Assembly: GCA_964457375.1 (NCBI GenBank)
Contig: CAYWFK010000007.1
Coordinates: 1 to 63,654 of the forward strand
DNA from: an uncultured Anaerolineales bacterium
GTDB lineage: Bacteria; Chloroflexota; Anaerolineae; Anaerolineales; UBA11858
DNA: 63,654 nt
Reading direction: 5' to 3'
The position numbers were made by a program, and so were the translations under genes. Shown piece by piece: positions 6,365-55,553 of this stretch (position 1 is the first letter of the stretch; every line of letters begins with the position of its first letter). The notes beneath the pieces were generated by a model. The model did no database searches. It had not been told where the DNA came from and saw only the letters and a list, made by a program, of their open reading frames with translations.

Positions 6365-6368
6365 GGTT

Positions 6369-7256: not shown

Positions 7257-7591
7257 GGTTACCTTCCTTCACGCGAAACCCAACCCGTTTCTGTTTTTAC
7301 GCATCAAAAAATGGGGTTTGTTTCGTAAAATGTTTGTGCATCGGTAAATTGATTACCTGAATCGATTCTACCACACAGGGGATAGCGAGGCAATTTGGAA
7401 AGCCCCTGGAAAGGTGCCTTGGAGAGCTTTCTTACGAATAATTAATAATTTATTGGAGACATAGAAAAGAAACCCGCCGGTATTTTCCCCTGGTGGGTTG
7501 TACAGGAGCGGCTTTGAGCCCGCGTTTTACCATCCCTTCAGTCAATCAAACAATCAAGACGGGTTGGCAAGCCGTGCCTGTGTGTGCTGGT

Positions 7592-7882
7592 TTATCGCGG
7601 TTCGACGGTGAAGCGGATGGCTGTGCGTACTTTCCCGTCGATTTCTACATCCACGAATTCGGGCATGCAAATAAGATCGTAACCGTCGTCGACAACGTAC
7701 CCCTTGGCCAGCGCCAGGGCTTTGACGGCTTGATTGACTGCACTTGCTCCGATTGCTTGCACCTCAGCATGTTGGTGTTCTCGAATGACACCCGCAATTG
7801 CACCGGCAACTGATGATGTGCGGGAAGTTGCTGAGACCTTGATGATATCGATACGTTTTTTGTCTCTGTTTTCGTTGTCCAT
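7592..7882 (-). CDS. spoVS: Stage V sporulation protein S family (Alba-like nucleic-acid-binding protein)
   Basis: IIKVSATSRTSSVAGAIAG...VQAIGASAVNQAVKA signature. Confidence 0.9.
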   Translation of the reverse strand: MDNENRDKKRIDIIKVSATSRTSSVAGAIAGVIREHQHAEVQAIGASAVNQAVKALALAKGYVVDDGYDLICMPEFVDVEIDGKVRTAIRFTVEPR

Positions 7883-7943
7883 GATGGCATCCTTATTGGT
7901 GGGTTTGCGAAGGTACTAACCAAAACGATGTTGTGATAGTTTG

Positions 7944-7972
7944 ATTGTACAGGATTTTGGGTTAAGAATCAA
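7944..7972 (-). promoter_or_regulatory. Putative sigma70 promoter of spoVS
   Basis: Minus-strand TTGATT (7972-7967), 17 bp, TACAAT (7949-7944). Confidence 0.55.
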
Positions 7973-8118
7973 GAAGAATTCGATAGGGGTTTGAACGCGA
8001 AAAAGGCGCTGAAAAACGAATTACCCGATGGCAAATCGATTATAATCAAATCAAGGCAGGTGCATGGCTTGCGTTCAATCCCGGTTTTGGGAAACAAAAC
8101 GGCTCGAAGGAACTGGTT

Positions 8119-9243
8119 ATGGGAAGACCCCGGTTTGAAGATTTGAATTTGTCAACCCGCATTTTGCTTGGCCCGGGACCAAGTATGGTGCCGCCGCGGG
8201 TTTTGAATGCCCTGGCAACACCGCCTGTGGGACATCTTGACCCCCGGTTCCTGAGCATCATGGCGGAGGTGAAAGAACTTCTGCGTTTTGTGTTTCAAAC
8301 CGAAAATGCGGTAACTTTTCCGGTTTCAGGCACGGGCAGCGCAGGTATGGAAGCCGCTTTGTGCAATTTCATCGAGCCCGGAGACAGGGTGTTGATTGCC
8401 ATCAACGGGTATTTCGGTGAGCGGCTGGCGGAAATTGCGGGGCGCTATGGCGCCCGGGTTGATCGTCTCGAACGCCCGTGGGGCGAGGTATTTACTCCCG
8501 ATGAGGTCGAAGCGGCTTTGCGCAAGGCATCGTATAAATTGTTTGCGCTTGTTCATGCTGAAACTTCCACCGGCACTTTGCAAAATCGTATCGGGGAAAT
8601 CGCTTCTGTTGTCCATCGTGTGGGTGCACTTTTCGTTTTGGATACGGTGGCTTCTTTGGGCGGCGTTCCGGTCAGGGTAGACCGGTGGCAGGTGGATGTT
8701 TGTTACAGCGGTTCGCAAAAATGTCTTTCTGCACCACCAGGCCTGGCGCCGGTTACGGTTTCAGAACGCGCAATGGACGTTCTGCGGGCGCGGAAAACGC
8801 CGGTTGCCAACTGGTATCTGGATTTGGCGGCACTCATGCGCTATTGGGGAGAGCCGCACGTCTATCACCATACCGCTCCGGTGAATATGATCTTTGCGTT
8901 GCGGGAAGCGCTGCGCCTGGTTTATGAAGAAGGGCTGGAAATGCGTTTTGCCCGGCATCGTGCCAATGCGGAAATGCTTTGGCGCGGGCTTGAGGATTTG
9001 GGCTTGTCGCTTCGAATCCCGCCGGAGCACCGGCTGGCGACATTGACGACACCCGATTTGCCGGAGGGTCTCGATGAAAGGGCGGTTCGCAGGCAGCTGC
9101 TGACGGATTATAATGTGGAAATATCCGGCGGGTTCGGACCGTTTGCCGGGAAAATCTGGAGAATTGGGCTGATGGGCTTCAGCAGCCGGCGCGAACATGT
9201 TGCCTTGCTGCTTGCTCTGCTTCGGCAGTTTTTGGCAGCATGA
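8119..9243 (+). CDS. Alanine-glyoxylate/serine-pyruvate aminotransferase family (class V PLP enzyme)
   Basis: LLGPGPS, HAETSTG, DTVASLGG, SGSQKCL (PLP Lys). Confidence 0.9.
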   Translation: MGRPRFEDLNLSTRILLGPGPSMVPPRVLNALATPPVGHLDPRFLSIMAEVKELLRFVFQTENAVTFPVSGTGSAGMEAALCNFIEPGDRVLIAINGYFGERLAEIAGRYGARVDRLERPWGEVFTPDEVEAALRKASYKLFALVHAETSTGTLQNRIGEIASVVHRVGALFVLDTVASLGGVPVRVDRWQVDVCYSGSQKCLSAPPGLAPVTVSERAMDVLRARKTPVANWYLDLAALMRYWGEPHVYHHTAPVNMIFALREALRLVYEEGLEMRFARHRANAEMLWRGLEDLGLSLRIPPEHRLATLTTPDLPEGLDERAVRRQLLTDYNVEISGGFGPFAGKIWRIGLMGFSSRREHVALLLALLRQFLAA

Positions 9244-17175: not shown

Positions 17176-18048
17176 ATGAACGAGAGTCAATTATCGGAGA
17201 ACAATGCTGGATTCAAAGACCAGTTGAAATGGTTGTGGGGTATTTTCATTCTTCCAAAGAAGACTATGGCTGAAATCATCGGGCAGACGAAGAAAGTATG
17301 GTTGCTGCCATTATTGATTATGAGTATCACAGCAGTTCTTTATGCTAATGCATCTGTGAAGGTGATGACGTCCGGTTTTCAGCCGAATTTTGGTGCACCG
17401 GGGGCGGGCATGCCGATGGAAGAGGGCGCTCCGATAGGTATGGAAGTGCAGGAGATGGAAGGTATGCCGTCTAATGATGCTGTGCTTGACGAGTATGGCG
17501 AGCCGCTTGATGCGCCGGGGGCAGAAAAATTCCCCGGGCAGCCAACGAGCCCAAACGGGTTGCTGAGCGGGGTCGGAAAAGTCATCCGTGTGTGGGGCAG
17601 CTGGATTGTGCTTGCCGCAGTGCTGTATCTTGCCCTGACGCTTTCAGGGGGCAGAATGGGGTTCAACAATGTGATGAATATTGTTGCCTGGTCGGGAATG
17701 CCATTGGCTCTGCGGGATGTCGTTCGTATGGTTTATGTGAATATGAAGCATCTGCCAATCAATAGCCCTGGTCTTTCCGGATTGGTTACCGGTACTCCGC
17801 CGGATAATACTTACTACTTCATGATAGCTTTGTTCACTTTGGTGGATGTTTATCTTTTGTGGAGTATTGCATTGCTGGTGATTGGCGGTAAGGAAGCCGG
17901 TAATTTGAGCCTGGGGAAGGCGATCAAGGCAGTGGTCATTCCTGTGGTTCTGCTGCTTGTTTTGTATGCAGTTGTTAGTGCCGGGGCAACGGTCGTGATT
18001 GCTCAAATGAAAGAAGGGGCTGCTGCAGCTGCCGGCGGAGGATTCTGA
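17176..18048 (+). CDS. Yip1-family membrane protein
   Basis: IFILPKKTMAEI Yip1-like start, ~5 TM segments, long acidic/Pro loop; first gene of the ABC operon. Confidence 0.75.
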   Translation: MNESQLSENNAGFKDQLKWLWGIFILPKKTMAEIIGQTKKVWLLPLLIMSITAVLYANASVKVMTSGFQPNFGAPGAGMPMEEGAPIGMEVQEMEGMPSNDAVLDEYGEPLDAPGAEKFPGQPTSPNGLLSGVGKVIRVWGSWIVLAAVLYLALTLSGGRMGFNNVMNIVAWSGMPLALRDVVRMVYVNMKHLPINSPGLSGLVTGTPPDNTYYFMIALFTLVDVYLLWSIALLVIGGKEAGNLSLGKAIKAVVIPVVLLLVLYAVVSAGATVVIAQMKEGAAAAAGGGF

Positions 18049-18049
18049 T

Positions 18050-18754
18050 TTGGAAAACGAGTTCATCGTAATCAAGGATTTAAAACGGTCATTTCAAATT
18101 GGTGATCAGGTGGTCTATGCGCTTCGCGGGGTCGATTTGACCATCGGACGCGGCGAATTCTGTATCATCAACGGGCAATCCGGCTCCGGAAAAAGCACCT
18201 TGCTGTATTTGCTGGGCGGGCTGGACAGGCCGACCTCCGGAACTGTGGAGATCAATGGTGTTGTCATCGATCATTTGGACGAAAACCAGCTGGCTGAGTT
18301 TCGAAGCAAAACGATCGGGTTCGTGTTTCAGAGTTACAACCTGATTCCGAGTATGACCGCTCTGGAAAATGTGATGTTCCCGATGATTTTTTCGGGGATA
18401 CCCAAAGCCAAGCGTGTCAAGCGCGCCAAGGAAGTGTTGCTGCATGTCGGGCTGGAGAAAAGAATGGAACACCGCCCGTCGGAATTATCGGGTGGTCAAC
18501 AGCAGCGTGTGGCCATTGCGCGGGCGCTGGTAAACAATCCTTCGCTTATTCTGGCTGATGAGCTTACCGGTAATCTGGATTCGGCCAGTGGTGAAGCTGT
18601 GATGGAAATTTTGAAGAACCTGAATGAAAAAGACGGCGTTACGATTGTGATGGTAACGCATAATCCCAATCTTGTAGATTACGCAACACAGGTGGTGGAA
18701 ATTTTGGATGGAAAAATTTTGAGAAACAAGATGTTGAAAGGACGTAGTAAATGA
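18050..18754 (+). CDS. ABC transporter ATP-binding protein (MacB/LolD-like)
   Basis: GQSGSGKST, LSGGQQQRVAIARAL, ILADELTGNLD, VTH. Confidence 0.95.
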   Translation: MENEFIVIKDLKRSFQIGDQVVYALRGVDLTIGRGEFCIINGQSGSGKSTLLYLLGGLDRPTSGTVEINGVVIDHLDENQLAEFRSKTIGFVFQSYNLIPSMTALENVMFPMIFSGIPKAKRVKRAKEVLLHVGLEKRMEHRPSELSGGQQQRVAIARALVNNPSLILADELTGNLDSASGEAVMEILKNLNEKDGVTIVMVTHNPNLVDYATQVVEILDGKILRNKMLKGRSK

Positions 18755-20328
18755 GAATATTCAAACGTTTGTCATCGTTATCGATTTGGTTAATTCCTTT
18801 GGTTGCTTTGCTGATGGTTGCGCCGGTGAGCGCACGTTCGTTGCATGAAGACGGGGCGCAAAATACTGCGGCTCCAACTGCCGAAGCCGCTACATCGACG
18901 CCGGTTCCTCCGACAGCGGTTCCGCCCACACCGACGCGGGGGGTAACGGTTTTCCCGACAACGGCACCGAAAGATCCCCCGTCGCCTGCTCCGACAGATG
19001 ACGGCGGTTCTCCGACCGACAGGCCTATTCTGGTTGTCAAGAAATATAAAATCGTTCCCGAGATACCCAAAATCGGGCAGGATTTCAAAATCAAGATCAC
19101 TGTTCGCAACGAAGGAACAGCAGAAGCGCGCAACGTGATTTTGACGTTCGATGCAAGTACGTTCCTGCCGCGGCAAACGGGCGGTGTGCTGGCGAAAGAC
19201 AATATCTATCAGCACAATGCCGGTAATTTTGTGCAGACTTTTAATGTGAGTTCCAATGCAAGAAGCGGCGCAAATCTTTTGACTGCAGCGATTTCTTATA
19301 CTGATGCGGACGGGAATGCGTATAGCACAAATTATACGTTTACGATCAATGTAAAAAGCAACTGGAGCGGTGTTGCCAGAGCGACGAAAACTCCTGTGCC
19401 TTCGAACAAGTCACAGCTGTTGATTACATCATACAGCACCGAATCCAAAATCGAGCATCTGCGCCCGGGCGATATCTTCACGCTGAAATTACAGGTTGCC
19501 AACATGGGCGGGCAGGAAGCGCGCAATGTCAAGATGGCAATCGGGGGCGCAACTGCCAGCAGCAGTGGACAAACATCTGATGATGGCAGCGGAGGCGATA
19601 CGAGCGTTTCTCTGTCCGGTGGCGATTTCTCGCACTTTGCACCGATTGGTGCTTCCAACGTGCAGACACTGGGCACGATTCCGGCCGGTGAGAACAAAGA
19701 TGCTTCTCAAAAACTGATTGTCGGGTTGGGAACGACAGCAGGTGCCTATTCCATGAAGATATCGTTCGTGTATCAGGACAAAGATAACAAAACGCATATC
19801 GATGATCAGGTGATTACGCTGTTGGTGTACGAACCGGCGAATCTGGAAATCAGCTATTATGAGCCGTTGAATATGGTCATGGTGAACCAGCCGGGGAAGA
19901 TTCCCGTACAGGTTGTCAATTTGGGCAACAAATCCGTCGTTTTGGGCAAGATTCATGTTGTGTCGGACGATGGCAGCGGGTCGTGGGAAAAGAACGAGGC
20001 AACAATTGGCGCAGTAGGCGGCGGTGATTTTTACTCACTTGACGCGGTTTTCACTCCGGATCATGCCGGCCCGCAGAAAATCAAGGTGATTGTGGAATAT
20101 ACGGATGCTTTCAACAATCCGCAGACGATCGAAGAAAAGTTGGATGTAAACGTGCAGGATATGCCCGAACCTTCTGCTGAAGAAGGGCAGGATGAGTTTT
20201 CGCCTGAGATGCAGCAGCCGACCCAACCGCTATCTTTGTGGGATCGTGTCGTTCAGTTTTTCAGCGGGTTGCTGGGTTTCGATAGCGGCAACTCGGATGC
20301 GGTCAAAGACGTGCAGATAACGAAATGA
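18751..20328 (+). CDS. Secreted Ig-like/CARDB repeat protein (COG1361 S-layer-domain-like) with C-terminal anchor
   Basis: Signal peptide, T/P linker, repeated 'I/L-x-V-x-N-x-G...A-x-N-V' beta-sandwich units. Confidence 0.7.
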   Translation: MRIFKRLSSLSIWLIPLVALLMVAPVSARSLHEDGAQNTAAPTAEAATSTPVPPTAVPPTPTRGVTVFPTTAPKDPPSPAPTDDGGSPTDRPILVVKKYKIVPEIPKIGQDFKIKITVRNEGTAEARNVILTFDASTFLPRQTGGVLAKDNIYQHNAGNFVQTFNVSSNARSGANLLTAAISYTDADGNAYSTNYTFTINVKSNWSGVARATKTPVPSNKSQLLITSYSTESKIEHLRPGDIFTLKLQVANMGGQEARNVKMAIGGATASSSGQTSDDGSGGDTSVSLSGGDFSHFAPIGASNVQTLGTIPAGENKDASQKLIVGLGTTAGAYSMKISFVYQDKDNKTHIDDQVITLLVYEPANLEISYYEPLNMVMVNQPGKIPVQVVNLGNKSVVLGKIHVVSDDGSGSWEKNEATIGAVGGGDFYSLDAVFTPDHAGPQKIKVIVEYTDAFNNPQTIEEKLDVNVQDMPEPSAEEGQDEFSPEMQQPTQPLSLWDRVVQFFSGLLGFDSGNSDAVKDVQITK

Positions 20329-21662
20329 AGACGAAAGATTTTATCGTACTGATATGGGAAAACCTGATGCGGCGCAAGGGGCGCGTCGTGCTGACCTCGA
20401 TCGGGGTTGTTGTCGGGACTGCGTCGATACTCATTCTCGTTTCTCTGATTGCTGCATTGCAGCGCAATGCTGCGCAAAGCATCTTTGGAATCAGCGAAAT
20501 GATGAAAATTACTGTCAGCCCGGGTTATGGCGAGACGGATAATCAGGACGATCAAATGGGGATGATGTTCAGTGAAGGCGAAATGGATGATGGGGGTGGA
20601 AAACGCAAACCGACAGCTCCGATCAACAAACAGGCGTTGGAGTTCATGAAATCTCTTCCTGACGTGGATAAAGTCATTCCGATGGATTCGGCGTCAGGTA
20701 TGCTGAATTATCACAAGATGGAAGCGTACCCCCAAATTACCGGGTACGACATCGATGATCTGAAAGAAGTGGGTGTGAAATCTGCCCAAGGGACAACGGA
20801 GCTGGCGAGCGGAACGATCATTCTTGGGGGAGGTATACCGGAAAGTTTCTATGGCGGGAAAAAACGTCCGGGCGAGAAACGCTCATCCACTCCCGACTTA
20901 TTGGGAAAAACGCTCACACTGGTTTTGACGAAGAATTCTTCCGACGGAACGGAAATGCGCAAAGTGCTGCGCTTTCGGGTAACGGGCATTCTCAAGAAAA
21001 CACAAGGTATGGAAGATTGGGGTGCCTTTGTAACAATGAAAGATGTGGAAAAGATCAACCAGTGGATGAAAGGCAAGCGGGTTAACCGCAATCGCGATGG
21101 TTACCAGCAGGCTGTCGTGTTCGTCAAGGATTCCAAGAAGACTCTTGAAGTTTCCAAGAAGATTCACGAGAAAGGGTACCAAACTTTTACAGCACAGTCT
21201 TTTCTGAAAGGAATTAATAGTTTCTTCTTCTTCCTGCAGGTAATTTTCGGGGGTATCGGTGCGGTTTCACTGTTGGTTGCCGCTATCGGGATCTCCAATA
21301 CGATGACAATGGCGATTCTGGAACGTACCCGCGAGATCGGGTTGATGAAAGCGATTGGTGCAACCAACCAGAATGTGCTGACTATCTTTTTGGGGGAGGC
21401 CGGCGGGATCGGATTCCTGGGGGGCGTAGGGGGTGCTGCGCTGGGCGCTTTGGTGAATATGGTCATCGGGCTCGGTATCGGGATGGCATTCCCTGCAAAA
21501 GGTGGCAGCGGCGGTGGTATGGGGGCGGTAACGGTTACCACTTCGCTGACGACAGTTCTGTTTATCATTGTCTTTTCCACTGTTATTGGTGTGTTATCCG
21601 GTGTTTATCCGGCTTTACGGGCAGCTACACTTATCCCCGTTGAAGCGCTACGGACAGAATAA
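20325..21662 (+). CDS. ABC transporter permease (MacB/FtsX family)
   Basis: RKGRVVLTSIGVVVG, large extracellular domain, ERTREIGLMKAIGA, C-terminal YPALRAA..PVEALR. Confidence 0.92.
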   Translation: MKTKDFIVLIWENLMRRKGRVVLTSIGVVVGTASILILVSLIAALQRNAAQSIFGISEMMKITVSPGYGETDNQDDQMGMMFSEGEMDDGGGKRKPTAPINKQALEFMKSLPDVDKVIPMDSASGMLNYHKMEAYPQITGYDIDDLKEVGVKSAQGTTELASGTIILGGGIPESFYGGKKRPGEKRSSTPDLLGKTLTLVLTKNSSDGTEMRKVLRFRVTGILKKTQGMEDWGAFVTMKDVEKINQWMKGKRVNRNRDGYQQAVVFVKDSKKTLEVSKKIHEKGYQTFTAQSFLKGINSFFFFLQVIFGGIGAVSLLVAAIGISNTMTMAILERTREIGLMKAIGATNQNVLTIFLGEAGGIGFLGGVGGAALGALVNMVIGLGIGMAFPAKGGSGGGMGAVTVTTSLTTVLFIIVFSTVIGVLSGVYPALRAATLIPVEALRTE

Positions 21663-21702
21663 TTAAATTATTATAGTAACGATGTGAATGAGATAACGAA
21701 TT

Positions 21703-23007
21703 ATGAATAAGAAGATATTACTAGGATTGTTGACAGTTGTTGTTGCGCTGGGGATTTTTTATCTATCGCGTTTTGCGTGGGTATTGTTGAGAAATCAACC
21801 TGAATTTACTTATGCCACCTACGCTGAGGCTCAAAAAGACGGAATGATCGAGAAAGGCTGGATTCCGGCATTTGTTCCGGAAACAGCGACAAATTTGCAT
21901 TTGGCAATTAATCTGGATACAAATAACAGCTTGCTTTCTTTCGAAGCACCCGAGAAGGCACTTGACGATGTGGCGGATTGCGCTGCTGTTTCGCAAAAAG
22001 GAAGCCACGCGTTGAACGCCCGGTGGTGGTCGGATGAGTATTATAACGACTCTGCCACTCGGTTTTATCGCTGCGGTAAAGAAAAGTGGCTGGCGGTCAA
22101 TAAAAACAAGGTGTGGTATTGGGTTGGAATGAAGCATTTGACAGTCAAGGAACTTGTCCGTCATGCGAAGTCCTATACCTACCTTGACAAAATGGATGTG
22201 ATACTTTCCGGATATGTGGACTTGTCCAATGTGTTCGATATCCGCACGCATGACGAGAGTAATACGTTTGGACTGGTTCCTGATTTCCGGAAAGGGGGTG
22301 AGAATGATGTTTTTGTGATTTTCGATAATACAGATGATGCTTATGCTGTATTGGACCAAATCCACAACGAGACGCCGAGTTGTACTTCTACGGATATTGC
22401 CATCCGGATGGAGATGGAGGGAATGCTGCGCAAGTTTGAAATGCCGATGAATTTCAATACCGATATCGGTTATCAAATTCAGGTGCATGACTATCAGGAC
22501 ATTGTTTTCCTTTCCAAAATGGGTGACCCGTTACCCAGCAGCAAAGCCGAATTCAGAACCAGGATTAGGTTGTTGTTGCCGGATGGAAACAAGTTGAAAC
22601 TGCCGTCGAAAGCCTGGCAGCTGATGCAAGCCGGTTTTACCGTTTCTCCTGTCGTGGAATCTTTCGCTCAGCTTTGGCGTGTTCGCGCTGAAAAGATTTC
22701 CGCAGGTGATATAAACGGAGATGGCAAAGAAGATGCGGCGGCTTTGATTCGTGTCAGGAATGACGGGGAAGCGCCGTTGTTGTATCTTGTGGCTGCGGTT
22801 GCCGAAAATGAATTCACTCTGCCTGAGGATGCGACGTATATAGGCAAGAACCTGAAAGTGAAAGGGTTGGAGATACACGATGGCACGATCGAACTTCATT
22901 ATTCGATGGCGCCGGCGGGCAAAGCGGATTCCAGTGACTCGGCAGGTAATGTCGTCCGGGTTTTCAAACTGGTCGATAACCGCCTGGTCGAGGACTCTAA
23001 ACCTTAA
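21703..23007 (+). CDS. Hypothetical multi-domain membrane-anchored extracellular protein
   Basis: N-terminal TM; C-terminal GDINGDGKED DxDGDG-type Ca-binding motif. Confidence 0.7.
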   Translation: MNKKILLGLLTVVVALGIFYLSRFAWVLLRNQPEFTYATYAEAQKDGMIEKGWIPAFVPETATNLHLAINLDTNNSLLSFEAPEKALDDVADCAAVSQKGSHALNARWWSDEYYNDSATRFYRCGKEKWLAVNKNKVWYWVGMKHLTVKELVRHAKSYTYLDKMDVILSGYVDLSNVFDIRTHDESNTFGLVPDFRKGGENDVFVIFDNTDDAYAVLDQIHNETPSCTSTDIAIRMEMEGMLRKFEMPMNFNTDIGYQIQVHDYQDIVFLSKMGDPLPSSKAEFRTRIRLLLPDGNKLKLPSKAWQLMQAGFTVSPVVESFAQLWRVRAEKISAGDINGDGKEDAAALIRVRNDGEAPLLYLVAAVAENEFTLPEDATYIGKNLKVKGLEIHDGTIELHYSMAPAGKADSSDSAGNVVRVFKLVDNRLVEDSKP

Positions 23008-23063
23008 AAGGTAAAATTTATTAGTGAGTGTGCAAAGATGTTATGTTTACGAGGAAATGCGTG

Positions 23064-23750
23064 ATGGACCGGCCGAATGTTTTAATTGTCGAAGATGAAA
23101 AACGAATCGCCCACTGGGTGAAAACTTATTTCGAGCGGGCAGGTTTCGAGGCAAAAACAGCCGAGAATGGTACAACCGGATTGGACATGGCTCTTTCTGA
23201 ACAGCCCGATTTGGTTGTGCTCGATTTGATGCTGCCCGGAATGGATGGACTTGCAGTTTGTCGTACACTGCGGGAAGAAACCAGTGTACCGATTATCATC
23301 ATGACTGCGCGGGGGAGTGAGCAGGACAAAATCCTTGGCTTGCAACTTGGCGCAGATGATTATGTTGTCAAGCCGTTCAGCCCCGGCGAGTTGATTGCCC
23401 GGGCAGAAGCAGTTCTTCGAAGAACCCGAGGACAGAACGGCAGCGGGCAGTCATTCCGTGTGAATGGCGTTGAACTTGATGTCAGTGCACATATCTGTAT
23501 TGTCAACGGGAAGGACGTGCCTTTGAGCCGTACCCAGTTCAATTTGCTGGCGGTTCTGATGAAGAATGCCGGACGTGTACTCACACGTGAGCAAATGGCG
23601 CAGGCAGCGTTTGATTCGGGTTATGAAAACTATGGCCGCACAATCGATGTCCATATCCGCCGCTTGCGCAAGCAAATCGAAAAAGACCCTTCGAGACCAC
23701 GGCGCATCCAAACCGTTTATGGTATCGGGTACAAGTTTTGTAAAGATTGA
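23064..23750 (+). CDS. OmpR/PhoB-family response regulator
   Basis: LIVEDE, LDLMLP (phospho-Asp), KPF, winged-helix RTIDVHIRRLR and TVYGIGY; GAGGA RBS before ATG 23064. Confidence 0.95.
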   Translation: MDRPNVLIVEDEKRIAHWVKTYFERAGFEAKTAENGTTGLDMALSEQPDLVVLDLMLPGMDGLAVCRTLREETSVPIIIMTARGSEQDKILGLQLGADDYVVKPFSPGELIARAEAVLRRTRGQNGSGQSFRVNGVELDVSAHICIVNGKDVPLSRTQFNLLAVLMKNAGRVLTREQMAQAAFDSGYENYGRTIDVHIRRLRKQIEKDPSRPRRIQTVYGIGYKFCKD

Positions 23751-23756
23751 GTATCC

Positions 23757-25565
23757 ATGAAAAAGATCTTCTCACGGAAACTGAAATGGGAACTGGCAGG
23801 GATTTTAAGCCTGGTGGTTGTCCTGACTGTTGCTTTGAATAGTCTGTTTTCCTTATGGCAGACTAGTCAGGGTTTCGAAATCTATGTTTCCGGCGAGAAC
23901 AGGGCGAATGCCGAGACGATTGCGCCTGTGTTGGAAAAATACTATGATTTTTACGGAAACTGGGACGGATTGAAAACTTTACTCGACCAGCAAGCGAACT
24001 ACGACAAAGCTTATTACGATTGGACCAGTGGGGTCGACTGGCTAACTGTCGCCGTGGAAACGATCGGTATTGATGAAAAAAAATTCTATGATGAATATGA
24101 TCGCACGTGGTACGTTGCGGGAATTGCGCGTAAGTATGGTGTTGATCCTGAAAAAATCGTTCAAAACATCATCGATGCCGAACAGCGCGCAGTTGACAAA
24201 GCAGTGACGGATAGAATACTTCCAGCGAAAACTGCCGAGCAAAATATGGTAATAGCCAAGGCTTTCGCTGCCGCTTTTGTATTTTCGAATGATGATAACA
24301 ATATCGGGGAACTCATGAATTTTGTGTATACCCCTGATGTTGTGAATGTTTTGCTTGGGACGCTGGTTATGGGGGACCAGCGGATTGTGGTGGTTTCTAC
24401 CAGCGGTTTCGTGGTGTATGACAACCTCCAGGACGAAGAGAAAAATATACTGGGCAGCCATCTGGATGAAAGAAGTCTGGAAATCGGCGTACCGCTCTAT
24501 GATAAAAGTTCCAAAAAGAGGATCGGTACGGTCATTGTCGGGTCGTTCTCGGGTACTTATGGACCTCAACAGCAAATCTTTCTGGAAAAAATCAACCAGT
24601 CTTTTCTCATGAGCGGGCTTTTGGCAAGCATCATCGGGGTGTTGATCGGTATCTGGACTTCACAGCGAATTACGGCACCGGTTACCGCTTTGACTGAGTC
24701 GGCGCGCAGGATGGTGGACGGGAATCAACCGATGAGATTGTCCGTTCGCTCTAATGACGAGCTGGGGCAAATGAGCCAGGCGTTCAACAAGATGATCGAC
24801 GCTCTGGAAGAGCAGCAGGCGTTAAGAAGCCGTTTGCTGCATGATGTTGCCCATGAACTGAATACACCGCTCAGTGTGATTCAACTTGAACTGGATGCCA
24901 TGAACGATAAGCTGCAGGCGCCGGAGGATGCTGCTGTGCATGTGTTGGAAGAAGTGGTGCATCTGCGGAATATCATCAATGACTTAACCTGGCTTTCGGA
25001 GACGAATGACGGTGAATTGCAGCTGGAATCACATCCGCTTGATATCTGCGCCGAGTTGCAGGAACGGGTGGCTTATTGGCAGCCGGTGGCAGACGCGAAA
25101 AGTGTCAGTCTGGTGCTGGATATTGCGCCGGAACTGGATGCGGAAGCACCGTTTGTGCAGGCGGATGAATTTCGGCTGGCACAGGTCTTCCGGAATTTGA
25201 TGGATAATGCCTTGCGTTATACCCCATCCGGGGGAACGATCACCGTTTCACTCAAACGGGAAACTCTTGAAACCCCGGGTGAGAAGAAGCAGTATCTGGT
25301 GACACGCGTAGAGGATTCCGGTATTGGCATTCCTCAGGAAGATTTGCCGCATATCTTCGAGCGGCTTTATCGTGTGGATCCTTCACGAAGCCGCGAGAAA
25401 GGGGGACATGGTTTGGGGCTTTCGATTGTGAAGCGGATCATCGAGGGGTACGGGGGTAAAGTATGGGCGGAAAGTACGTATCTTCAAGGGGCGACGATCG
25501 TTTTCGCTTTGCCTTGTTATGCAAGGGAAGATACTATGGGGAATACGCCCAAAGCCGAAGGTTAG
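23757..25565 (+). CDS. Sensor histidine kinase (BaeS-like) with enlarged extracellular domain
   Basis: Two TMs, HAMP (SNDELGQMSQAFN), H-box DVAHELNTPL, N/G boxes NLMDNA, DSGIGI, GHGLGL. Confidence 0.93.
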   Translation: MKKIFSRKLKWELAGILSLVVVLTVALNSLFSLWQTSQGFEIYVSGENRANAETIAPVLEKYYDFYGNWDGLKTLLDQQANYDKAYYDWTSGVDWLTVAVETIGIDEKKFYDEYDRTWYVAGIARKYGVDPEKIVQNIIDAEQRAVDKAVTDRILPAKTAEQNMVIAKAFAAAFVFSNDDNNIGELMNFVYTPDVVNVLLGTLVMGDQRIVVVSTSGFVVYDNLQDEEKNILGSHLDERSLEIGVPLYDKSSKKRIGTVIVGSFSGTYGPQQQIFLEKINQSFLMSGLLASIIGVLIGIWTSQRITAPVTALTESARRMVDGNQPMRLSVRSNDELGQMSQAFNKMIDALEEQQALRSRLLHDVAHELNTPLSVIQLELDAMNDKLQAPEDAAVHVLEEVVHLRNIINDLTWLSETNDGELQLESHPLDICAELQERVAYWQPVADAKSVSLVLDIAPELDAEAPFVQADEFRLAQVFRNLMDNALRYTPSGGTITVSLKRETLETPGEKKQYLVTRVEDSGIGIPQEDLPHIFERLYRVDPSRSREKGGHGLGLSIVKRIIEGYGGKVWAESTYLQGATIVFALPCYAREDTMGNTPKAEG

Positions 25566-25724: not shown

Positions 25725-28040
25725 TTATGGTGCGCCTGGCTGATGGTCCCGAAGAGGAGCGGCATTGTTTACAGACCATAGCGGGAAGTCGCTTTTCCCG
25801 TTGGGAGGAATCCCCGGCGGTGCAGCATACCCGGCATTCGACAAAAGCCAGTTGCGCAGGATTTTTTCGCTTACTCCGAACGGCTGGAATACCGTGGATG
25901 CGGCGCGTATCAGCAGAATGATGTAGCGATCGATATCCAGAGATGCCGGGTCAGGCCGCTCCGGAAGATCCCAGGCGTGAACACCGGGGCTGCCGATGGT
26001 GTACAGGAAGCGCACGCGTTGCCCGGGTTTTGTCTTTTTGCCGATTGCCTGGAGCTGGATGGCGGCGCGTGCAGCCGGCGGCAGGGTGCGGTATTCGTCG
26101 ATGGTGCGGCTGATTTTTTGCGAAACGAGCAGTTCCTGAAGGGGAATGCGGCCGGCGCGCAGATCCTGCAAGCGGTGGCGCAGCATGTTCGTCAAATCGG
26201 GCAGCGCCCGGGTGAGATGCCCGGGTGTTTGAATCCTGGCGAGGCGTTCGAGCATGGCTTGCTGGATGCCGGCGATGAAGGGGGGTGTATCACGGCGGCG
26301 GGCTTCGATACCGCGTATTTTCAGGGTGCCGTTTTGGAAAACGCCGAAAAAACGGTTGGCTACCGGCACCCGGTCGTCGATGCGGGAGGGCAGAAAAGCA
26401 ATCCAGCGGTATATGCCATCCAGCGCAATCGGCAGACCGGTGCGTTCCGAGATGGCATTCAGCACGGGTTGAAAATCTTCTGCGCATGATGCACCCGGTT
26501 TTTTGATCCACATGCCATCCACATACATGTGCAGAACGGTAAATCCGTGGCCTTCGACGATTTCCTTGGCGAGCAGAATGGCTTCGCGCCCGTAGGCTGT
26601 AACGGATTCGTGCGCCTCGATGCGGCCGAAGCGTGCGTTTTTATACCCGAGATAGCCAAAACAGGTAACCAGCAGCCACTTGTGGGCTGATGCATAAGCA
26701 CGATAGCGCCTGATGCGCGGATCTTTGGGGTGCAAGGATGCAATGCGCGTTTTCAGGTGTATGCGTTTTTCCAGAAGCGGTTGTAGAGTACGCGGCACCA
26801 GCCCTTTTTTGTCGGTGTCGATGTACAGATTCAGCGCCGGCACGCGGCGGGCGGACGGGATGTGCTCCCCCACCGTTTCCGGCGAAATATTGAAGTGTGC
26901 CATAATGCTCGGATACATCGAGGTGAAATCGATTTCCGCTACGTTTTTATGCAAGCCTGTCAGCGGCTGGTAGACGAGCCCGCCGCGGTCGGCGTGAATC
27001 AGTTCCAGCGCGGATTTGGGGTGTTCTGCCTGCTGTTTGTGCCAGGGAACCAGGATTTTGCTTCGTAGTGCTGTGGTGATTTCCATGGATGATATTCCTG
27101 TGCCGGGTGATAGACGGGCGGCACTTTGCAATGAAAGCCCGGTTACACGTGCCATTTCGAGTACGCCATCCAGGCCATAGTTGCCGAAAAGGACGGTGTT
27201 GCATACATCGATATGCCCGCGTCCGAACAGGCGGATTTGCCCGCCGCGATAAATCACCTGACCGTATGAAAAATAAGTGCGGTCTTTGCGTTTGTCGATT
27301 TTCAATGAGGCTTCGCGGTTGAGTGGCAGCGGGATGTTGGCTGTGCGGGAATGTTCCAGAAGGTAAGCGAGCAGCCAGGTATCTCCCCAGGCGGTGAGAA
27401 GCAAATCGGGGTCGCAGCGGCGCAGCAGGGCAGAGACCCCGACCAGCAGGGAACGCGCCGGTTCGAGCGTGAGCGTGTAATCGTTTTGCCCGCAGTGTAC
27501 CCGGAGTGCCCGGGGCGCTGCGTGAGACGGGTCGCAGTCCGGTTTGATGGTAAGCAAGCGCAGCGGAGGCGGTACCGGGTTGATATCCCATGGTGAATCG
27601 AGTGCTTCGATATGCAGGATTTGGTTGTCTTCACCGATTTGCAATCGGCAGTGTGCCAGTGGAAAGGTGCTGTGAAGAGCGTGATAGCGCAGCGCCAGGG
27701 GAATATCGGCATCGTAATAGGTCAGGTCGGGGAATGCTCTGGCAGCAGCCCTGAATACATGTGGCTGGCTGGCGGCATCTGCCACGCTGGCGGAAAGAAC
27801 GCGGATGGGTCCGGAATGAAAGATGTCGTTGCGTTCGGTGCGTGAAAGTTGTACGGGGATAGGCTGGTTTCTCAAAAATTTCCAAAGGGCACGCAATCGC
27901 GGCGCTGCCCCGGCGGCGTAGAAAGTGACCGGGAAATCCTGCCGCAGGCGGTAACGTTTTCTGTCTTCACCGATGAGCCAGATGATGACCCCCTCTTTGG
28001 GAACGGCGAAGATATCAAGCAGCCAACCGCATATTTCCAT
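25725..28040 (-). CDS. Family B DNA polymerase, PolB2 (Dpo2-like) subfamily; exonuclease motifs lost
   Basis: Motif A DFTSMYPS; motif B KWLLVTCFGYLGY; motif C reduced to HMYVDG; RGIEARRRDTP thumb; no DxE/NxxxFD exonuclease motifs. Confidence 0.9.
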   Translation of the reverse strand: MEICGWLLDIFAVPKEGVIIWLIGEDRKRYRLRQDFPVTFYAAGAAPRLRALWKFLRNQPIPVQLSRTERNDIFHSGPIRVLSASVADAASQPHVFRAAARAFPDLTYYDADIPLALRYHALHSTFPLAHCRLQIGEDNQILHIEALDSPWDINPVPPPLRLLTIKPDCDPSHAAPRALRVHCGQNDYTLTLEPARSLLVGVSALLRRCDPDLLLTAWGDTWLLAYLLEHSRTANIPLPLNREASLKIDKRKDRTYFSYGQVIYRGGQIRLFGRGHIDVCNTVLFGNYGLDGVLEMARVTGLSLQSAARLSPGTGISSMEITTALRSKILVPWHKQQAEHPKSALELIHADRGGLVYQPLTGLHKNVAEIDFTSMYPSIMAHFNISPETVGEHIPSARRVPALNLYIDTDKKGLVPRTLQPLLEKRIHLKTRIASLHPKDPRIRRYRAYASAHKWLLVTCFGYLGYKNARFGRIEAHESVTAYGREAILLAKEIVEGHGFTVLHMYVDGMWIKKPGASCAEDFQPVLNAISERTGLPIALDGIYRWIAFLPSRIDDRVPVANRFFGVFQNGTLKIRGIEARRRDTPPFIAGIQQAMLERLARIQTPGHLTRALPDLTNMLRHRLQDLRAGRIPLQELLVSQKISRTIDEYRTLPPAARAAIQLQAIGKKTKPGQRVRFLYTIGSPGVHAWDLPERPDPASLDIDRYIILLIRAASTVFQPFGVSEKILRNWLLSNAGYAAPPGIPPNGKSDFPLWSVNNAAPLRDHQPGAP

Positions 28041-28049
28041 GACGACCGG

Positions 28050-28313
28050 CTATATTTCCTTGCGGGAGATGGATTCAAGTGTGCGGCGCAAGCGCAAGAC
28101 TTCTTTGTGTTCTTCCAGAAGCATGGCAAGCAGGAATACCTCGAAGGGGAGGGCGTGTGCTGCGTAGGATGCGGCTGCCAGATGACGGCGTGCCGAGACG
28201 AACAAATCGTCCAGCGCACGCTGGTCTTCACGACGCAGGGCGCGCCGAAAGCGGGCGAACGCTGCCTGTTCTTGCAGGAATACCTGGGTGATGGATGATA
28301 ATGTGCGTCCCAT
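28050..28313 (-). CDS. Small helical protein of PolB2 operons (arCOG07300-like)
   Basis: MGRT...FRRALRREDQRALDDLF..AR.H..A......P.E..LL.MLLE pattern, as recalled for the small gene upstream of archaeal polB2. Confidence 0.8.
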   Translation of the reverse strand: MGRTLSSITQVFLQEQAAFARFRRALRREDQRALDDLFVSARRHLAAASYAAHALPFEVFLLAMLLEEHKEVLRLRRTLESISRKEI

Positions 28314-28388
28314 GATTCGTTTCCTCGGTTTCGATAGTTTTGGTTACAGTTTGGGTGTTGAAGCGACCGGCTGTTTGCCTGCGGAATA

Positions 28389-28922
28389 TCAAAACAGGCG
28401 GGGGTGTTGTTGTGCTGTTGCCTCAGGCGGAATATAGAGCGTATCGGCGGCCTGTTCGAGCGTTTCGAGAAGGCAGGTGCGCTCCGGCTGGGAAGTGCGG
28501 GGCGGGGATGCGCTGACGAGCACCGGGCCCCCGCGGCTCAGTCGCCGCAGGGAAACCAGGCATTCGTCCAGCAGGCGTTGGCATTCTTTCAGTTCCACGC
28601 TTTCATCGTAGAATGTGGCTAACAGATCGATCAGCACAATGGGAAAAGAAGTTGTCGAGGTTTCTTTCAGGAGTGTGTGCATCTGATAACAGGTAAATGC
28701 CCGCGCAACGTGGATTTGCTGAAGCACACGGCTGATGCCGGCTGTTTCGCGGCGGATATGCCGTGCTACGGCATAGGCGTTGAAAACATTTCCGCCATCC
28801 AGTACGTGCACCGCCCCCCTGCCACCAAGGCGGGCAATGGCTTTCAGGAGAGGAGCGTGCCCGTGCCTGGGGTAGATGGCCAGTGCCAAACCGTTTGCTG
28901 CGTGTGTTTCGAGTAGTTCCAT
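28389..28922 (-). CDS. Inactivated RadA/RecA-like protein (PolB2-associated; ImuA-like)
   Basis: LDGGNVFNAY, IHVARAFTCYQ and Walker-B-like IVLIDLLATFYD; Walker A absent. Confidence 0.75.
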   Translation of the reverse strand: MELLETHAANGLALAIYPRHGHAPLLKAIARLGGRGAVHVLDGGNVFNAYAVARHIRRETAGISRVLQQIHVARAFTCYQMHTLLKETSTTSFPIVLIDLLATFYDESVELKECQRLLDECLVSLRRLSRGGPVLVSASPPRTSQPERTCLLETLEQAADTLYIPPEATAQQHPRLF

Positions 28923-28957
28923 AGTTTTAGCTTAGCACGGTGCGATGCCGGAAACAA
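28923..28957 (-). promoter_or_regulatory. Putative promoter giving a leaderless mRNA for the RadA-like gene
   Basis: Minus-strand TTGTTT (28957-28952), 17 bp, TAAGCT (28934-28929), 6 nt, ATG; no Shine-Dalgarno. Confidence 0.45.
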
Positions 28958-28966
28958 TCCCTTGCA

Positions 28967-29008
28967 GGGGGTGTACGCGGGGGATATGGCGGGGTACCCC
29001 CGCGGGGG
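28967..29008. repeat. Phased G-run array G5-N7-G5-N7-G4-N9-G5 with overlapping palindromes
   Basis: G runs at 28967-71, 28979-83, 28991-94, 29004-08; palindromes GGGGTACCCC (28991-29000) and CCCCCGCGGGGG (28997-29008). Confidence 0.7.
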
Positions 29009-29024
29009 ACAAGTGCTTGCGGGT

Positions 29025-29444
29025 TCAGATGGATGTGTCAAGCCATTCGTGAAAGTCCCAGTCTGCCAGTGCCTGGCGCAAGGCTATTTTGCTGTGTGTA
29101 TTCGTCTTGCTGAGAATGTTGCGGACATGGCTTTTGACTGTTTCGGGTGCGATGATCAGCCTGCGGGCAATTTCGCGGTTGGTGTAATTGAGGCAGATAA
29201 GTGCGGCAACTTGTTTTTCGCGTGGTGAAAGTTCCTGCCAGCGTTCAAGGTTGGCTTCGGCTTCCTGCCGCCGTGTGGCGGCAATGCGCAGTAATTCGGA
29301 AGCGACTTTCTCGACGGCATGTCGTTCTTCGGCGGCGAGGCTTTCCAGAATCTCCCGGGTTTCCCGGTCGAGGCTTATGCTGATTTGCCGCCCGGGCGGA
29401 CGGCGGATGGTGTTTTGCAGACGCTGCCAGATAGATGTGTTCAT
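29025..29444 (-). CDS. LuxR/NarL-type HTH regulator with N-terminal ribbon-helix-helix-like segment, no receiver domain
   Basis: C-terminal LSPREKQVAALIC..YTNREIA.RL.IAPETVKSHVRNILSK; N-terminal QISISLDRETREILESLAAEE. Confidence 0.85.
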   Translation of the reverse strand: MNTSIWQRLQNTIRRPPGRQISISLDRETREILESLAAEERHAVEKVASELLRIAATRRQEAEANLERWQELSPREKQVAALICLNYTNREIARRLIIAPETVKSHVRNILSKTNTHSKIALRQALADWDFHEWLDTSI

Positions 29445-29527: not shown

Positions 29528-29557
29528 ATTATATTAGAACATCTGTTCTGGTGTCAA
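29528..29557 (-). promoter_or_regulatory. Consensus sigma70 promoter containing a LexA (SOS/Cheo-type) box
   Basis: Minus-strand TTGACA (29557-29552), 18 bp, TATAAT (29533-29528); spacer holds the perfect palindrome AGAAC-ATCT-GTTCT (29536-29549). Confidence 0.85.
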
Positions 29558-55349: not shown

Positions 55350-55553
55350 AAGATACCGCGGGGATGCCGCCTGACGGGGAAGGGTTCAACACCCCTGCCA
55401 CACCGGCACAGGAAACATCCCCGCTGTAACGCTTCGGGCGGGGAGCTTGCACAGGAAAAATGCCATAGCAGACTGGCGGCTTTACAAGCCGCCAACCCGG
55501 TTTAGCGGTTCAGGGGGAAACAATGGGCTGGGGTAACGGGAAAAAATAATTTG

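What the first reader, a model, noticed from the sequence alone, without database searches (positions are those of the whole stretch)
25725..28922. Archaeal-type PolB2 three-gene cassette in a bacterium: a family-B mutasome analogue
Seen: inactive RadA-like gene, small helical gene and PolB in one co-oriented run. Known: this trio (RadA-like, arCOG07300, PolB2) is the conserved PolB2 neighbourhood described in archaea and some bacteria; Sulfolobus Dpo2 is damage-inducible; the layout parallels ImuA-ImuB-DnaE2. To my knowledge it has not been studied experimentally in bacteria. No mobile-element genes flank it.
Basis: partly seen in the sequence, partly recalled or inferred. Interest (0 to 1): 0.8.

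Follow-up and report, generated by a model that had tools for sequence, protein, structure and literature searches.

The report
SOS-controlled bacterial PolB2 polymerase operon
This is a chromosomal copy of the already described archaeal-type "PolB2 mutasome" operon (inactive RadA, small helical PPB2, proofreading-dead family-B polymerase) in an Anaerolineae (Chloroflexota) bacterium; what is new here is its wiring, with a LexA (SOS) operator and a small LuxR-type regulator gene in front of it.

Summary
Three co-oriented minus-strand genes at 28922-25725 encode an inactivated RadA (iRadA, 177 aa), a small helical protein starting with MGRT (PPB2, 87 aa), and a 771-aa family-B polymerase. The polymerase has a broken exonuclease motif and YVD in place of DTD. 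The cassette is common, with relatives in at least 565 species genomes. No experimental study in bacteria was found.

What this study adds:
- **Fourth gene.** A 139-aa LuxR/GerE-type gene (29444-29025) sits upstream on the same strand in 33 of 80 related loci.
- **SOS operator.** A perfect sigma-70 promoter upstream of that gene carries a perfect AGAAC-N4-GTTCT LexA box in its spacer. It is the only exact match in the window. The box is conserved at the cassette start in 52 of 73 testable loci.
- **Internal promoter.** A conserved ~95-bp module lies between the LuxR gene and iRadA. It has an invariant TAnnnT 6 nt before the ATG, which suggests a leaderless transcript.

I infer a cascade of LexA, then the LuxR-type factor, then the PolB2 operon. 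This is not shown. Verdict: a new member of a known kind, of moderate interest.

The parts
29528..29557 (-). Promoter P1: TTGACA (29557..29552), an 18-nt spacer, then TATAAT (29533..29528).
   Evidence: Matches 12 of 12 consensus positions; read directly. The same layout, TTGAC-box-TATAAT, is seen in L001, L008, L012, L014, L027, L032, L033, L053, L057, L064 and L071.
29536..29549 (.). Predicted LexA (SOS) operator AGAACAGATGTTCT, lying in the spacer of P1.
   Evidence: It is the only exact GAACN4GTTC in the 63.6-kb window and scores 24.3 bits on the PWM, the next best site scoring 8.4. In 80 related loci, 43 of 55 exact matches lie within -300..+250 of the first cassette gene. With the PWM, 52 of 73 testable loci carry the box. 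GAAC-N4-GTTC is the LexA motif of B. subtilis and Gram-positive bacteria (PMC4234289, PMC3323433). The few other high-scoring sites in the loci include ones that precede NurA and radical-SAM/HhH repair genes.
29025..29444 (-). Gene for a 139-aa LuxR/GerE-family DNA-binding protein. It has an N-terminal helical part, a C-terminal NarL-type HTH and a conserved DWDFxxW tail.
   Evidence: Pfam GerE at E 3.3e-14. The AF2 model has pLDDT 86, and its C-terminal domain superposes on the NarL DNA-binding domain at 0.6 A rmsd over 58 residues. A homologue sits immediately upstream and co-oriented in 33 of 80 loci. All six homologues sampled independently, three adjacent to iRadA and three solo, carry a LexA box in their promoter.
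28923..29011 (-). Conserved intergenic module. It contains the palindrome GGGGTACCCC (29000..28991), C-tracts, and CCCCC-TGCAA-GGG (28971..28959). The module abuts the predicted internal promoter P2: TTGTTT (28957..28952), a 17-nt spacer, TAAGCT (28934..28929), then 6 nt to the iRadA ATG (28922).
   Evidence: An nhmmer profile hits 26 of the 80 loci and the window (window E 4e-14). In the 25-sequence alignment, the T, A and T of TAnnnT and the ATG are invariant and their spacing is fixed. There is no Shine-Dalgarno sequence, which fits a leaderless mRNA. It is not an RNA element by these tests: no Rfam hit, fold z-score -0.81, and RNAalifold predicts 0 pairs.
28389..28922 (-). iRadA: a RadA/Rad51-fold protein lacking the N-terminal domain and Walker A. 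Its C-terminal ...QQHPRLF is a candidate beta-clamp-binding motif.
   Evidence: See for the RadA fold. 58 of 68 homologues end in x-L-[F/L/W], for example QPRLF, QPALF and QLSLL. PMC11791011 reports clamp motifs at iRadA C-termini in Anaerolineae.
28050..28313 (-). PPB2 (arCOG07300): an 87-aa helical protein with an N-terminal MGRT arm.
   Evidence: MGRT is invariant and mean identity is 69% over 29 homologues. The gene has its own Shine-Dalgarno sequence, GAGGAA. Homologues carry Pfam DUF8156 in the precomputed annotations.
25725..28040 (-). PolB2: a family-B DNA polymerase. Exo I reads K-P-D instead of D-x-E (residues 166-168). Motif A is DFTSMYPS (D371), motif B is KWLLVTCFGYLGY (K454) and motif C is YVD (D508). 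A candidate second clamp motif, FPLW, lies near the C-terminus.
   Evidence: The residue-by-residue alignment to archaeal PolB places YVD under DTD and, for the family consensus, E-x-D under D-I-E (the window reads K-P-D in the same columns of A1).

Best explanation
The locus is a chromosomal, vertically kept copy of the bacterial PolB2 mutasome operon of Anaerolineae (Chloroflexota), extended by a regulator gene. I separate what is shown from what is inferred.

Shown from sequence:
- Four co-oriented genes: a LuxR/GerE-type gene, iRadA, PPB2 and PolB2.
- A perfect sigma-70 promoter whose spacer holds a perfect Gram-positive-type LexA box, upstream of the LuxR-type gene.
- A conserved module between the LuxR-type gene and iRadA, with a -10 hexamer 6 nt before the ATG.

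Inferred mechanism:
1. DNA damage activates RecA and LexA cleaves itself, which derepresses P1.
2. The LuxR-type protein is made. It most likely acts on the conserved palindromes next to the weak -35 of the internal promoter P2, and read-through from P1 may add to this.
3. P2 produces a leaderless iRadA-PPB2-PolB2 transcript.
4. The products assemble as PolB2 + iRadA + a PPB2 trimer, as modelled in PMC11791011, and dock on the beta clamp through the C-terminal tail of iRadA.
5. The polymerase lacks proofreading but keeps the two metal-binding aspartates. By analogy with Sulfolobus Dpo2, it extends mismatched or lesion-opposed primer ends, giving damage-induced, error-prone synthesis.
For: Gene identities rest.

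Conservation and gene order: iRadA is present in 68 and PPB2 in 73 of 80 loci, always in the order iRadA-PPB2-PolB2. At least 565 species genomes encode a relative.

SOS control:
- The window has one exact LexA box, and it lies inside a 12/12 promoter.
- 43 of 55 exact boxes in 906 kb of related loci lie at the cassette start, where about 3 would be expected by chance.
- Two of the few other strong boxes precede DNA-repair genes (NurA; radical-SAM/HhH).

Cascade:
- The LexA box is either directly at the iRadA promoter in loci without a LuxR gene, or at the LuxR gene in loci that have the P2 module.
- About 14 loci have the P2 module but neither a LexA box nor an adjacent LuxR gene.
- Solo LuxR-type genes elsewhere in the genome still carry the LexA box.

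Literature: the trio and a lexA link (PMC4104785); the heteropentamer model and clamp motifs (PMC11791011); Dpo2 is damage-inducible and acts as a TLS extender (abstracts of PMC7390963 and PMC8764526).
Against: - Nothing is experimental. No transcript, protein or activity data exist for any bacterial PolB2.
- The LexA protein and its motif were not examined in this genome, because lexA and recA are not in the window.
- 21 of 73 loci have no recognisable box near the cassette.
- The role of the LuxR-type protein is inferred only from position and complementary distribution. Its binding site is not identified. It could be a repressor, or an SOS-regulated factor with other targets.
- The iRadA tail here reads HPRLF, not the canonical Q-x-x-L-F.
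- Motif B lacks the usual Asn and Tyr, so activity is assumed from the archaeal homologue.
Confidence: 0.75

Rival explanations
1. The four genes form one simple LexA-repressed operon, transcribed only from P1. The LuxR-type protein is an unrelated SOS-regulated passenger or regulates other genes. The conserved intergenic module is not a promoter.
For: The genes are co-oriented with short gaps. The LexA box lies upstream of the LuxR gene in about 30 of 33 loci. There is no strong terminator between the LuxR gene and iRadA in the window. Solo LuxR-type genes exist that are followed by unrelated genes.
Against: The invariant TAnnnT at a fixed 6 nt from the ATG, and the absence of a Shine-Dalgarno sequence, are hard to explain without a promoter. 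The same module precedes iRadA in about 14 loci that have no upstream co-oriented gene and no LexA box, so iRadA must have its own promoter there.
Confidence: 0.3
2. PolB2 is a catalytically dead scaffold, as first proposed for this group. On this view the complex regulates replication or fork processing rather than synthesising DNA.
For: The first Asp of motif C is Tyr (YVD), the Asn and Tyr of motif B are replaced, and Exo I is lost. PMC4104785 argued for inactivation from such substitutions.
Against: S. islandicus Dpo2, which has IID at the same place, is required for targeted mutagenesis and is active as a TLS extender (PMC11791011 introduction and discussion; PMC8764526). D371 (motif A) and D508 (the second Asp of motif C) are invariant in 16 homologues. 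From my own knowledge of RB69 and Pol alpha structures, these two are the metal ligands of family-B polymerases.
Confidence: 0.12
3. The cassette belongs to a mobile element or an anti-phage defence system that uses a family-B polymerase (pipolin, casposon or defence-island type).
For: The cassette's G+C (0.57) is higher than that of its immediate flanks (0.48-0.52). PolB2 entered bacteria by horizontal transfer from archaea (PMC11791011).
Against: There is no integrase, Cas1, transposase or repeat boundary among the annotated ORFs of the window. PADLOC gives only a polymerase-domain cross-hit to a model named 'HEase'. The chromosomal neighbours are the same in L001. The low-G+C stretch is the neighbouring 17-25.5 kb block, not the cassette. 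The conserved LexA box points to host regulation.
Confidence: 0.03

Closest known systems
Bacterial PolB2 mutasome operon, group 1a iRadA-PPB2-PolB2 (Timinskas, Timinskas & Venclovas 2025, PMC11791011; Makarova, Krupovic & Koonin 2014, PMC4104785)
   Same: The three families and the gene order are the same. So are the YVD motif C, the dead exonuclease, the MGRT arm of PPB2, the iRadA without Walker A and its C-terminal clamp-type tail, and the host clade (Anaerolineae are in their dataset).
   Different: Nothing differs in the three core genes. The papers note a lexA gene nearby in some bacteria, and they list GerE only as an abundant neighbour domain in a supplementary table (131 cases), without comment. 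Here the LexA operator itself, the LuxR/GerE gene as first gene, and an internal leaderless-type promoter are described.
Sulfolobus islandicus Dpo2 (archaeal PolB2), a damage-inducible TLS extender (PMC7390963, PMC8764526)
   Same: A family-B polymerase without proofreading and with a substituted first Asp in motif C. It is encoded with PPB2 and iRadA, and induction by damage is known or predicted.
   Different: The archaeal gene order is PPB2-PolB2-iRadA, induction works through an Orc1/Cdc6-type factor rather than LexA, and the clamp is PCNA rather than the beta clamp. The bacterial enzyme is untested.
E. coli Pol V mutasome (UmuD'2C-RecA-ATP) and the ImuA-ImuB-DnaE2 cassette
   Same: Each is a LexA-controlled, multi-subunit, error-prone polymerase with a RecA-fold partner, a small accessory subunit and beta-clamp docking. 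Expression is delayed or staged.
   Different: The catalytic subunit belongs to family B, not Y or C. The RecA-fold partner is a dedicated, inactive RadA homologue encoded in the operon. The accessory protein is a helical trimer. The resemblance is analogy, not homology.
E. coli Pol II (PolB), the SOS-induced family-B polymerase
   Same: A family-B polymerase with LexA control and a C-terminal clamp motif.
   Different: Pol II is a single subunit with active proofreading and an intact DTD. It is only distantly similar (E 1.7e-11, against 1.6e-58 for archaeal PolB).

Membership tests
PolB2 (G2) group of family-B polymerases | Family-B polymerase fold that is closer to archaeal PolB than to Pol II or viral PolBs. 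| tested here: met
   Pfam DNA_pol_B at 1.9e-28. NCBIfam PRK05761-type models score 379 and 319 bits, against 69 bits or less for Pol II models. In the PDB profile search, archaeal PolB scores 1.6e-58, Pol II 1.7e-11 and herpesvirus PolB 1e-7. The protein is 46% identical to a published Chloroflexota PolB2. No full phylogeny with archaeal PolB2 was made.
PolB2 (G2) group of family-B polymerases | Inactivated 3'-5' exonuclease active site. | tested here: met
   Exo I D-x-E aligns with K-P-D in the window and with E-x-D in the family consensus. The Exo III Asp is not conserved.
PolB2 (G2) group of family-B polymerases | First Asp of the motif C DxD is substituted; bacterial members never have DxD. 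| tested here: met
   HMYVDGMW reads YVD under DTD in the alignment to 5mdn. Y506, V507 and D508 are invariant in 16 homologues. The published Chloroflexota rows list the same 'YVD'.
PolB2 mutasome operon | Adjacent iRadA: a RadA/Rad51 fold without the N-terminal domain and without ATPase motifs. | tested here: met
   Profile against the PDB gives E 7e-6. In the Foldseek search the top 50 hits are all Rad51/RadA/DMC1. The protein is only 177 aa and has no GKT motif.
PolB2 mutasome operon | Adjacent PPB2: a helical protein of about 90 aa with a conserved N-terminal MGRT arm. | tested here: met
   The 87-aa protein begins MGRTLSSITQ, and MGRT is invariant in 29 sequences. Its structure was not modelled here.
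PolB2 mutasome operon | Bacterial gene order iRadA-PPB2-PolB2 on one strand. | tested here: met
PolB2 mutasome operon | Physical heteropentamer (PolB2, iRadA, three PPB2) and TLS activity. | not testable with these tools
   Only monomer prediction was available. The published multimer models cover other Anaerolineae (PMC11791011).
SOS (LexA) regulon | A LexA operator of the clade's type overlapping the promoter. | tested here: met
   A perfect AGAAC-N4-GTTCT lies between the -35 and -10 elements and is conserved in orthologous loci. Binding by LexA and induction were not tested.
LuxR/GerE (NarL/FixJ-type) transcription factors (the fourth gene) | A C-terminal four-helix HTH of the GerE type. 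| tested here: met
   Pfam GerE at 3.3e-14. The model superposes on NarL, LiaR and RcsB DNA-binding domains at 0.6-0.8 A. There is no receiver or autoinducer domain, so it is neither a response regulator nor a quorum sensor.

The most novel reading that the evidence does not exclude
In many Anaerolineae the error-prone PolB2 complex would be under two-tier SOS control. LexA represses a dedicated small LuxR/GerE-type factor, whether that gene sits next to the operon or elsewhere in the genome. The factor then switches on a leaderless iRadA-PPB2-PolB2 transcript through conserved palindromes next to a weak -35 element. This would be a transcriptional delay circuit for a mutagenic polymerase, doing at the transcription level what UmuD cleavage does for Pol V. 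It would also identify a previously undiscussed regulatory partner of the bacterial PolB2 system.
Probability: 0.4. Interest if true: 0.55.

Novelty: new member of a known kind. Interest (0 to 1): 0.4.

Why it matters
Bacterial PolB2 is a widespread family-B translesion polymerase complex, found in hundreds of Anaerolineae species and in other phyla. It is predicted from models only, and I found no bacterial experiment. This locus supplies a clean, chromosomal, complete example with explicit and testable regulatory parts: a LexA operator inside a consensus promoter, a candidate dedicated regulator, and a candidate leaderless internal promoter. If confirmed, it would show that a polymerase system imported from archaea was wired into the bacterial SOS network. 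It would also give a handle (LexA box plus LuxR-type factor) for inducing and purifying the complex. As a discovery of the cassette itself, however, it is not new.

Tried and rejected
1. RNA element between the LuxR gene and iRadA. Rejected: no Rfam match, fold z-score -0.81, and RNAalifold finds no consensus pairs in 25 sequences.
2. Defence system. PADLOC gave only a polymerase-domain cross-hit to a model named 'HEase', plus weak hits of the HTH protein to CARF models. Rejected.
3. Mobile element. There is no integrase or transposase among the annotated ORFs of the window, and flanking synteny with L001 is conserved.
4. A ribbon-helix-helix N-terminal domain in the LuxR-type protein. The sequence pattern suggested it, but the monomer model shows only helices and no PDB match covers the N-terminal part. 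Left open.
5. The 87-aa and 183-aa genes next to a Y-family polymerase in L082, considered as a possible second PPB2/iRadA pair. Rejected: the 183-aa protein has a weak CMD (AhpD-like) hit and the 87-aa protein has no MGRT.
It was redone with database homologues.
7. I could not obtain an archaeal Dpo2 sequence from the supplement, so no explicit PolB2/PolB3 tree was built.
8. lexA, recA, dinB, umuC, imuAB and dnaE2 were looked for among most of the larger ORFs of the window. None is present there. The rest of the genome is not available.
Full report
**Observation.** The window carries three co-oriented minus-strand ORFs exactly within the stated coordinates: 28922..28389 (177 aa), 28313..28050 (87 aa) and 28040..25725 (771 aa).

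- The 771-aa protein is a family-B DNA polymerase. It hits Pfam DNA_pol_B at E 1.9e-28. Its best NCBIfam models are the archaeal-type PRK05761 set (379 and 319 bits), while Pol II models score 69 bits or less.
- The 177-aa protein is only a sub-threshold Rad51 hit on its own (E 6e-4). A profile of 30 orthologues matches RadA/Rad51 chains in the PDB at E 7e-6. An AlphaFold model (pLDDT 89.7) retrieves only Rad51/RadA/DMC1 ATPase cores among its top 50 Foldseek hits (E about 1e-7, TM 0.6-0.7). It lacks the N-terminal domain and any Walker A GKT motif.
- The 87-aa protein begins with MGRT. These four residues are invariant, and the protein is 69% identical on average across 29 orthologues.

**Identity.** This is the iRadA-PPB2-PolB2 operon.

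- Makarova et al. 2014 (PMC4104785) described the trio (PolB2, arCOG07300, inactivated RadA) in archaea and in "several bacterial genomes", sometimes together with lexA.
- Timinskas et al. 2025 (PMC11791011) renamed the partners iRadA and PPB2 and showed that bacteria have only the order iRadA-PPB2-PolB2. They modelled a PolB2 + iRadA + PPB2-trimer "mutasome", identified the MGRT arm of PPB2, and found beta-clamp motifs at the C-termini of iRadA or PolB2. Several of their examples are Anaerolineae.
- The window polymerase is 46% identical over 387 residues to a Chloroflexota PolB2 from their table (group 1a, motif "YVD").
- In the residue-level alignment to an archaeal PolB structure, motif C reads Y-V-D under D-T-D, and Exo I D-I-E aligns with E-x-D in the family consensus (K-P-D in the window, by the columns of alignment A1). 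Motif A (D371) and the second motif C Asp (D508) are kept and are invariant in 16 homologues.
- The closest solved structures are archaeal PolBs (E 1.6e-58). E. coli Pol II scores only 1.7e-11 and herpesvirus PolB about 1e-7.

**Distribution and context.**

- More than 6000 database proteins match, and the named ones among the best hits are Chloroflexota/Anaerolineales.
- A scan of one genome per species found at least 565 genomes with a relative. The best 80 loci are, with one exception (a short contig labelled Gammaproteobacteria), labelled Anaerolineae or Chloroflexota.
- iRadA is present in 68 of those loci and PPB2 in 73, in the same order.
- The window is ordinary chromosome: guanylate and thymidylate kinases, PdxS/PdxT, ClpB, RNase D, ABC transporters and two-component systems, with no integrase or transposase among the ORFs annotated.
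- In the closest relative, L001, the cassette lies between the same SDR gene and the same FKBP and rhomboid genes. The window has an extra block, 17176-25565, between PolB2 and FKBP.
- No other TLS polymerase, lexA or recA was found among the ORFs annotated in the window.

**Regulation (new here).** The gene directly upstream on the same strand (29444..29025) encodes a 139-aa LuxR/GerE-type protein.

- It hits Pfam GerE at 3.3e-14. Its modelled C-terminal domain superposes on the NarL DNA-binding domain at 0.6 A.
- A homologue occupies this position in 33 of 80 loci.
- The 2025 paper lists GerE only as the seventh most abundant neighbour domain in a supplementary table and never discusses it.

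About 85 nt upstream of the start codon of this gene lies a 12/12 sigma-70 promoter: TTGACA, 18 nt, TATAAT (29557..29528). Its spacer contains the perfect palindrome AGAACAGATGTTCT (29549..29536).

- This is the only exact GAACN4GTTC in the 63.6-kb window.
- GAAC-N4-GTTC is the LexA operator of B. subtilis and Gram-positive bacteria (PMC4234289, PMC3323433). From memory, it was also reported for the Chloroflexi member Dehalococcoides.

The box is conserved across the related loci.

- 43 of the 55 exact matches in 906 kb lie within -300..+250 of the first cassette gene, a zone covering about 5% of the sequence.
- With a weight matrix, 52 of 73 loci that have enough upstream DNA carry the box, and only about 7 sites occur elsewhere. 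The matrix was trained on these same sites; the exact-pattern count above is the unbiased figure.
- The consensus is TATAGAACATATGTTCTATT, usually between or next to -35 and -10 elements.
- Two of those other sites precede a NurA nuclease gene (L062, L067) and a third a radical-SAM/HhH repair gene (L049).

Damage-inducibility is therefore well supported in silico, but it is not shown.

**A second promoter.** The 102 nt between the LuxR-type gene and iRadA are conserved. An nhmmer profile finds the module in 26 of the 80 loci and the window. In a 25-sequence alignment the invariant columns are the T, A and T of a TAnnnT hexamer and the ATG, together with an AT in the ATTG of a -35-like element; the hexamer lies 6 nt before the ATG and the ATTGTnT 17 nt upstream of it. 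There is no Shine-Dalgarno sequence.

- In the window the elements are TTGTTT (28957..28952), TAAGCT (28934..28929) and ATG (28922). This is the signature of a promoter producing a leaderless mRNA.
- Upstream lie C-tracts and two palindromes: GGGGTACCCC (GGGTTAACCC in relatives) and CCCCC-N5-GGG. The second abuts the -35-like element.
- An RNA reading is not supported.

**How the elements are distributed.** The pattern is complementary across loci.

- Loci without a LuxR gene often have the LexA box directly at a consensus promoter in front of iRadA, followed by a leader with a Shine-Dalgarno sequence.
- Loci with the LuxR gene have the box in front of that gene and the leaderless module in front of iRadA.
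- About 14 loci have the module but neither a box nor a LuxR gene within 6 kb.
- Of six LuxR-type homologues looked up independently, three are adjacent to iRadA-PPB2 and three are solo. All six have a LexA box in their promoter, one of them with a single mismatch.

I infer a cascade in which LexA represses the LuxR-type factor and that factor acts on P2. This is a hypothesis, with a probability of about 0.4.

**Mechanism.** The gene content, motifs and operators are shown. The rest is inferred. After damage, LexA cleavage opens P1. The LuxR-type factor and the three subunits are made. PolB2, iRadA and a PPB2 trimer assemble, following the published models. The iRadA tail docks on the beta clamp: 58 of 68 orthologues end in x-L-[F/L/W], and the window has ...QQHPRLF. 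The proofreading-dead polymerase then extends distorted primer ends, as Sulfolobus Dpo2 does (abstracts of PMC7390963 and PMC8764526). PolB2 here also has an FPLW near its C-terminus, a motif found in 19 of 79 orthologues.

**Novelty and verdict.** The cassette, its bacterial occurrence and the mutasome analogy are all published. No bacterial experiment was found. The finding is a correct recognition of a known system: a new member of a known kind. The added regulatory anatomy is modestly new and directly testable. Interest 0.4.

Noticed in passing
window 17176-25565: A block of seven plus-strand genes (Yip1, ABC ATPase, CARDB protein, FtsX/MacB permease, a 434-aa protein of unknown function, an OmpR-type response regulator and a histidine kinase) lies between PolB2 and the FKBP/rhomboid genes. 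It is absent from the otherwise syntenic closest relative L001. Its G+C (0.47-0.50) is lower than that of the rest of the window, so it is a likely insertion here or a deletion in L001.
   Followed up: partly
L003, L004 and L005 (PolB2 at about 6001-8295): 'Solo' PolB2 genes, 59-61% identical to the window's, with a LexA box and TATAAT about 50 nt upstream. No iRadA or PPB2 lies within 6 kb on either side (within the up to about 3 kb of downstream sequence held for L003 and L004), and in L005 (the only one inspected) the upstream gene is divergent. L006 and L056 also lack the partners, but there no box lies at the PolB2 start. Either the partners are encoded elsewhere or this is a partner-less variant.
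   Followed up: partly
L082 5324-8393 and 630-1832: In this metagenomic contig the PolB2 reading frame stops after 310 aa. A group II intron reverse transcriptase/maturase gene (RVT_1, Intron_maturas2) follows, which suggests an intron-interrupted polB2. A Y-family polymerase gene (IMS domains) lies about 2 kb upstream on the other strand, so PolB2 and a DinB-like enzyme coexist there.
   Followed up: no
L086 3001-6393: The LuxR-type gene, iRadA (202 aa) and a short PPB2 (67 aa) are followed not by PolB2 but by a 1619-aa UvrA-like ABC protein. This may be a variant cassette or a rearrangement.
   Followed up: no
L062 about 3872, L067 about 3856, L049 about 8593: Strong LexA-box matches precede a NurA nuclease gene (L062, L067) and a radical-SAM plus helix-hairpin-helix 'DNA repair' gene (L049). 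These are candidate further members of the Anaerolineae SOS regulon.
   Followed up: partly
L078 about 4935-5100: Three tandem copies of CCGCCGGATGTTCTATAT sit at the 5' end of the iRadA ORF, which translates to repeated YPPDVL. Each copy contains a GTTCTAT half-site of the LexA box.
   Followed up: no
window, whole length: GC skew is positive in every 2-kb window (0.02-0.24), whatever the gene orientation. This suggests the whole window lies on one replichore, with the plus strand as leading strand. One tRNA-Ser(CGA) lies at 55553-55641.
   Followed up: no
L082 5086-5343, L085 4079-4345: The precomputed annotations assign PPB2 homologues to Pfam PF26485 (DUF8156). The Pfam copy searched here gave no hit for the window's PPB2. 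The family therefore seems to have a very recent Pfam entry, still labelled as a domain of unknown function.
   Followed up: partly
window 29025-29444 and 28050-28313: The LuxR-type protein also hits sigma-70 region 4 and ECF sigma models weakly (Sigma70_r4_2 at 5.8e-5, TIGR02937 at 4.5e-4). PMC11791011 reports that PPB2 structurally resembles the N-terminal (sigma-2-like) domain of SigR. Taken together, the two small proteins recall the two halves of an ECF sigma factor. This is pure speculation and was not tested.
   Followed up: no
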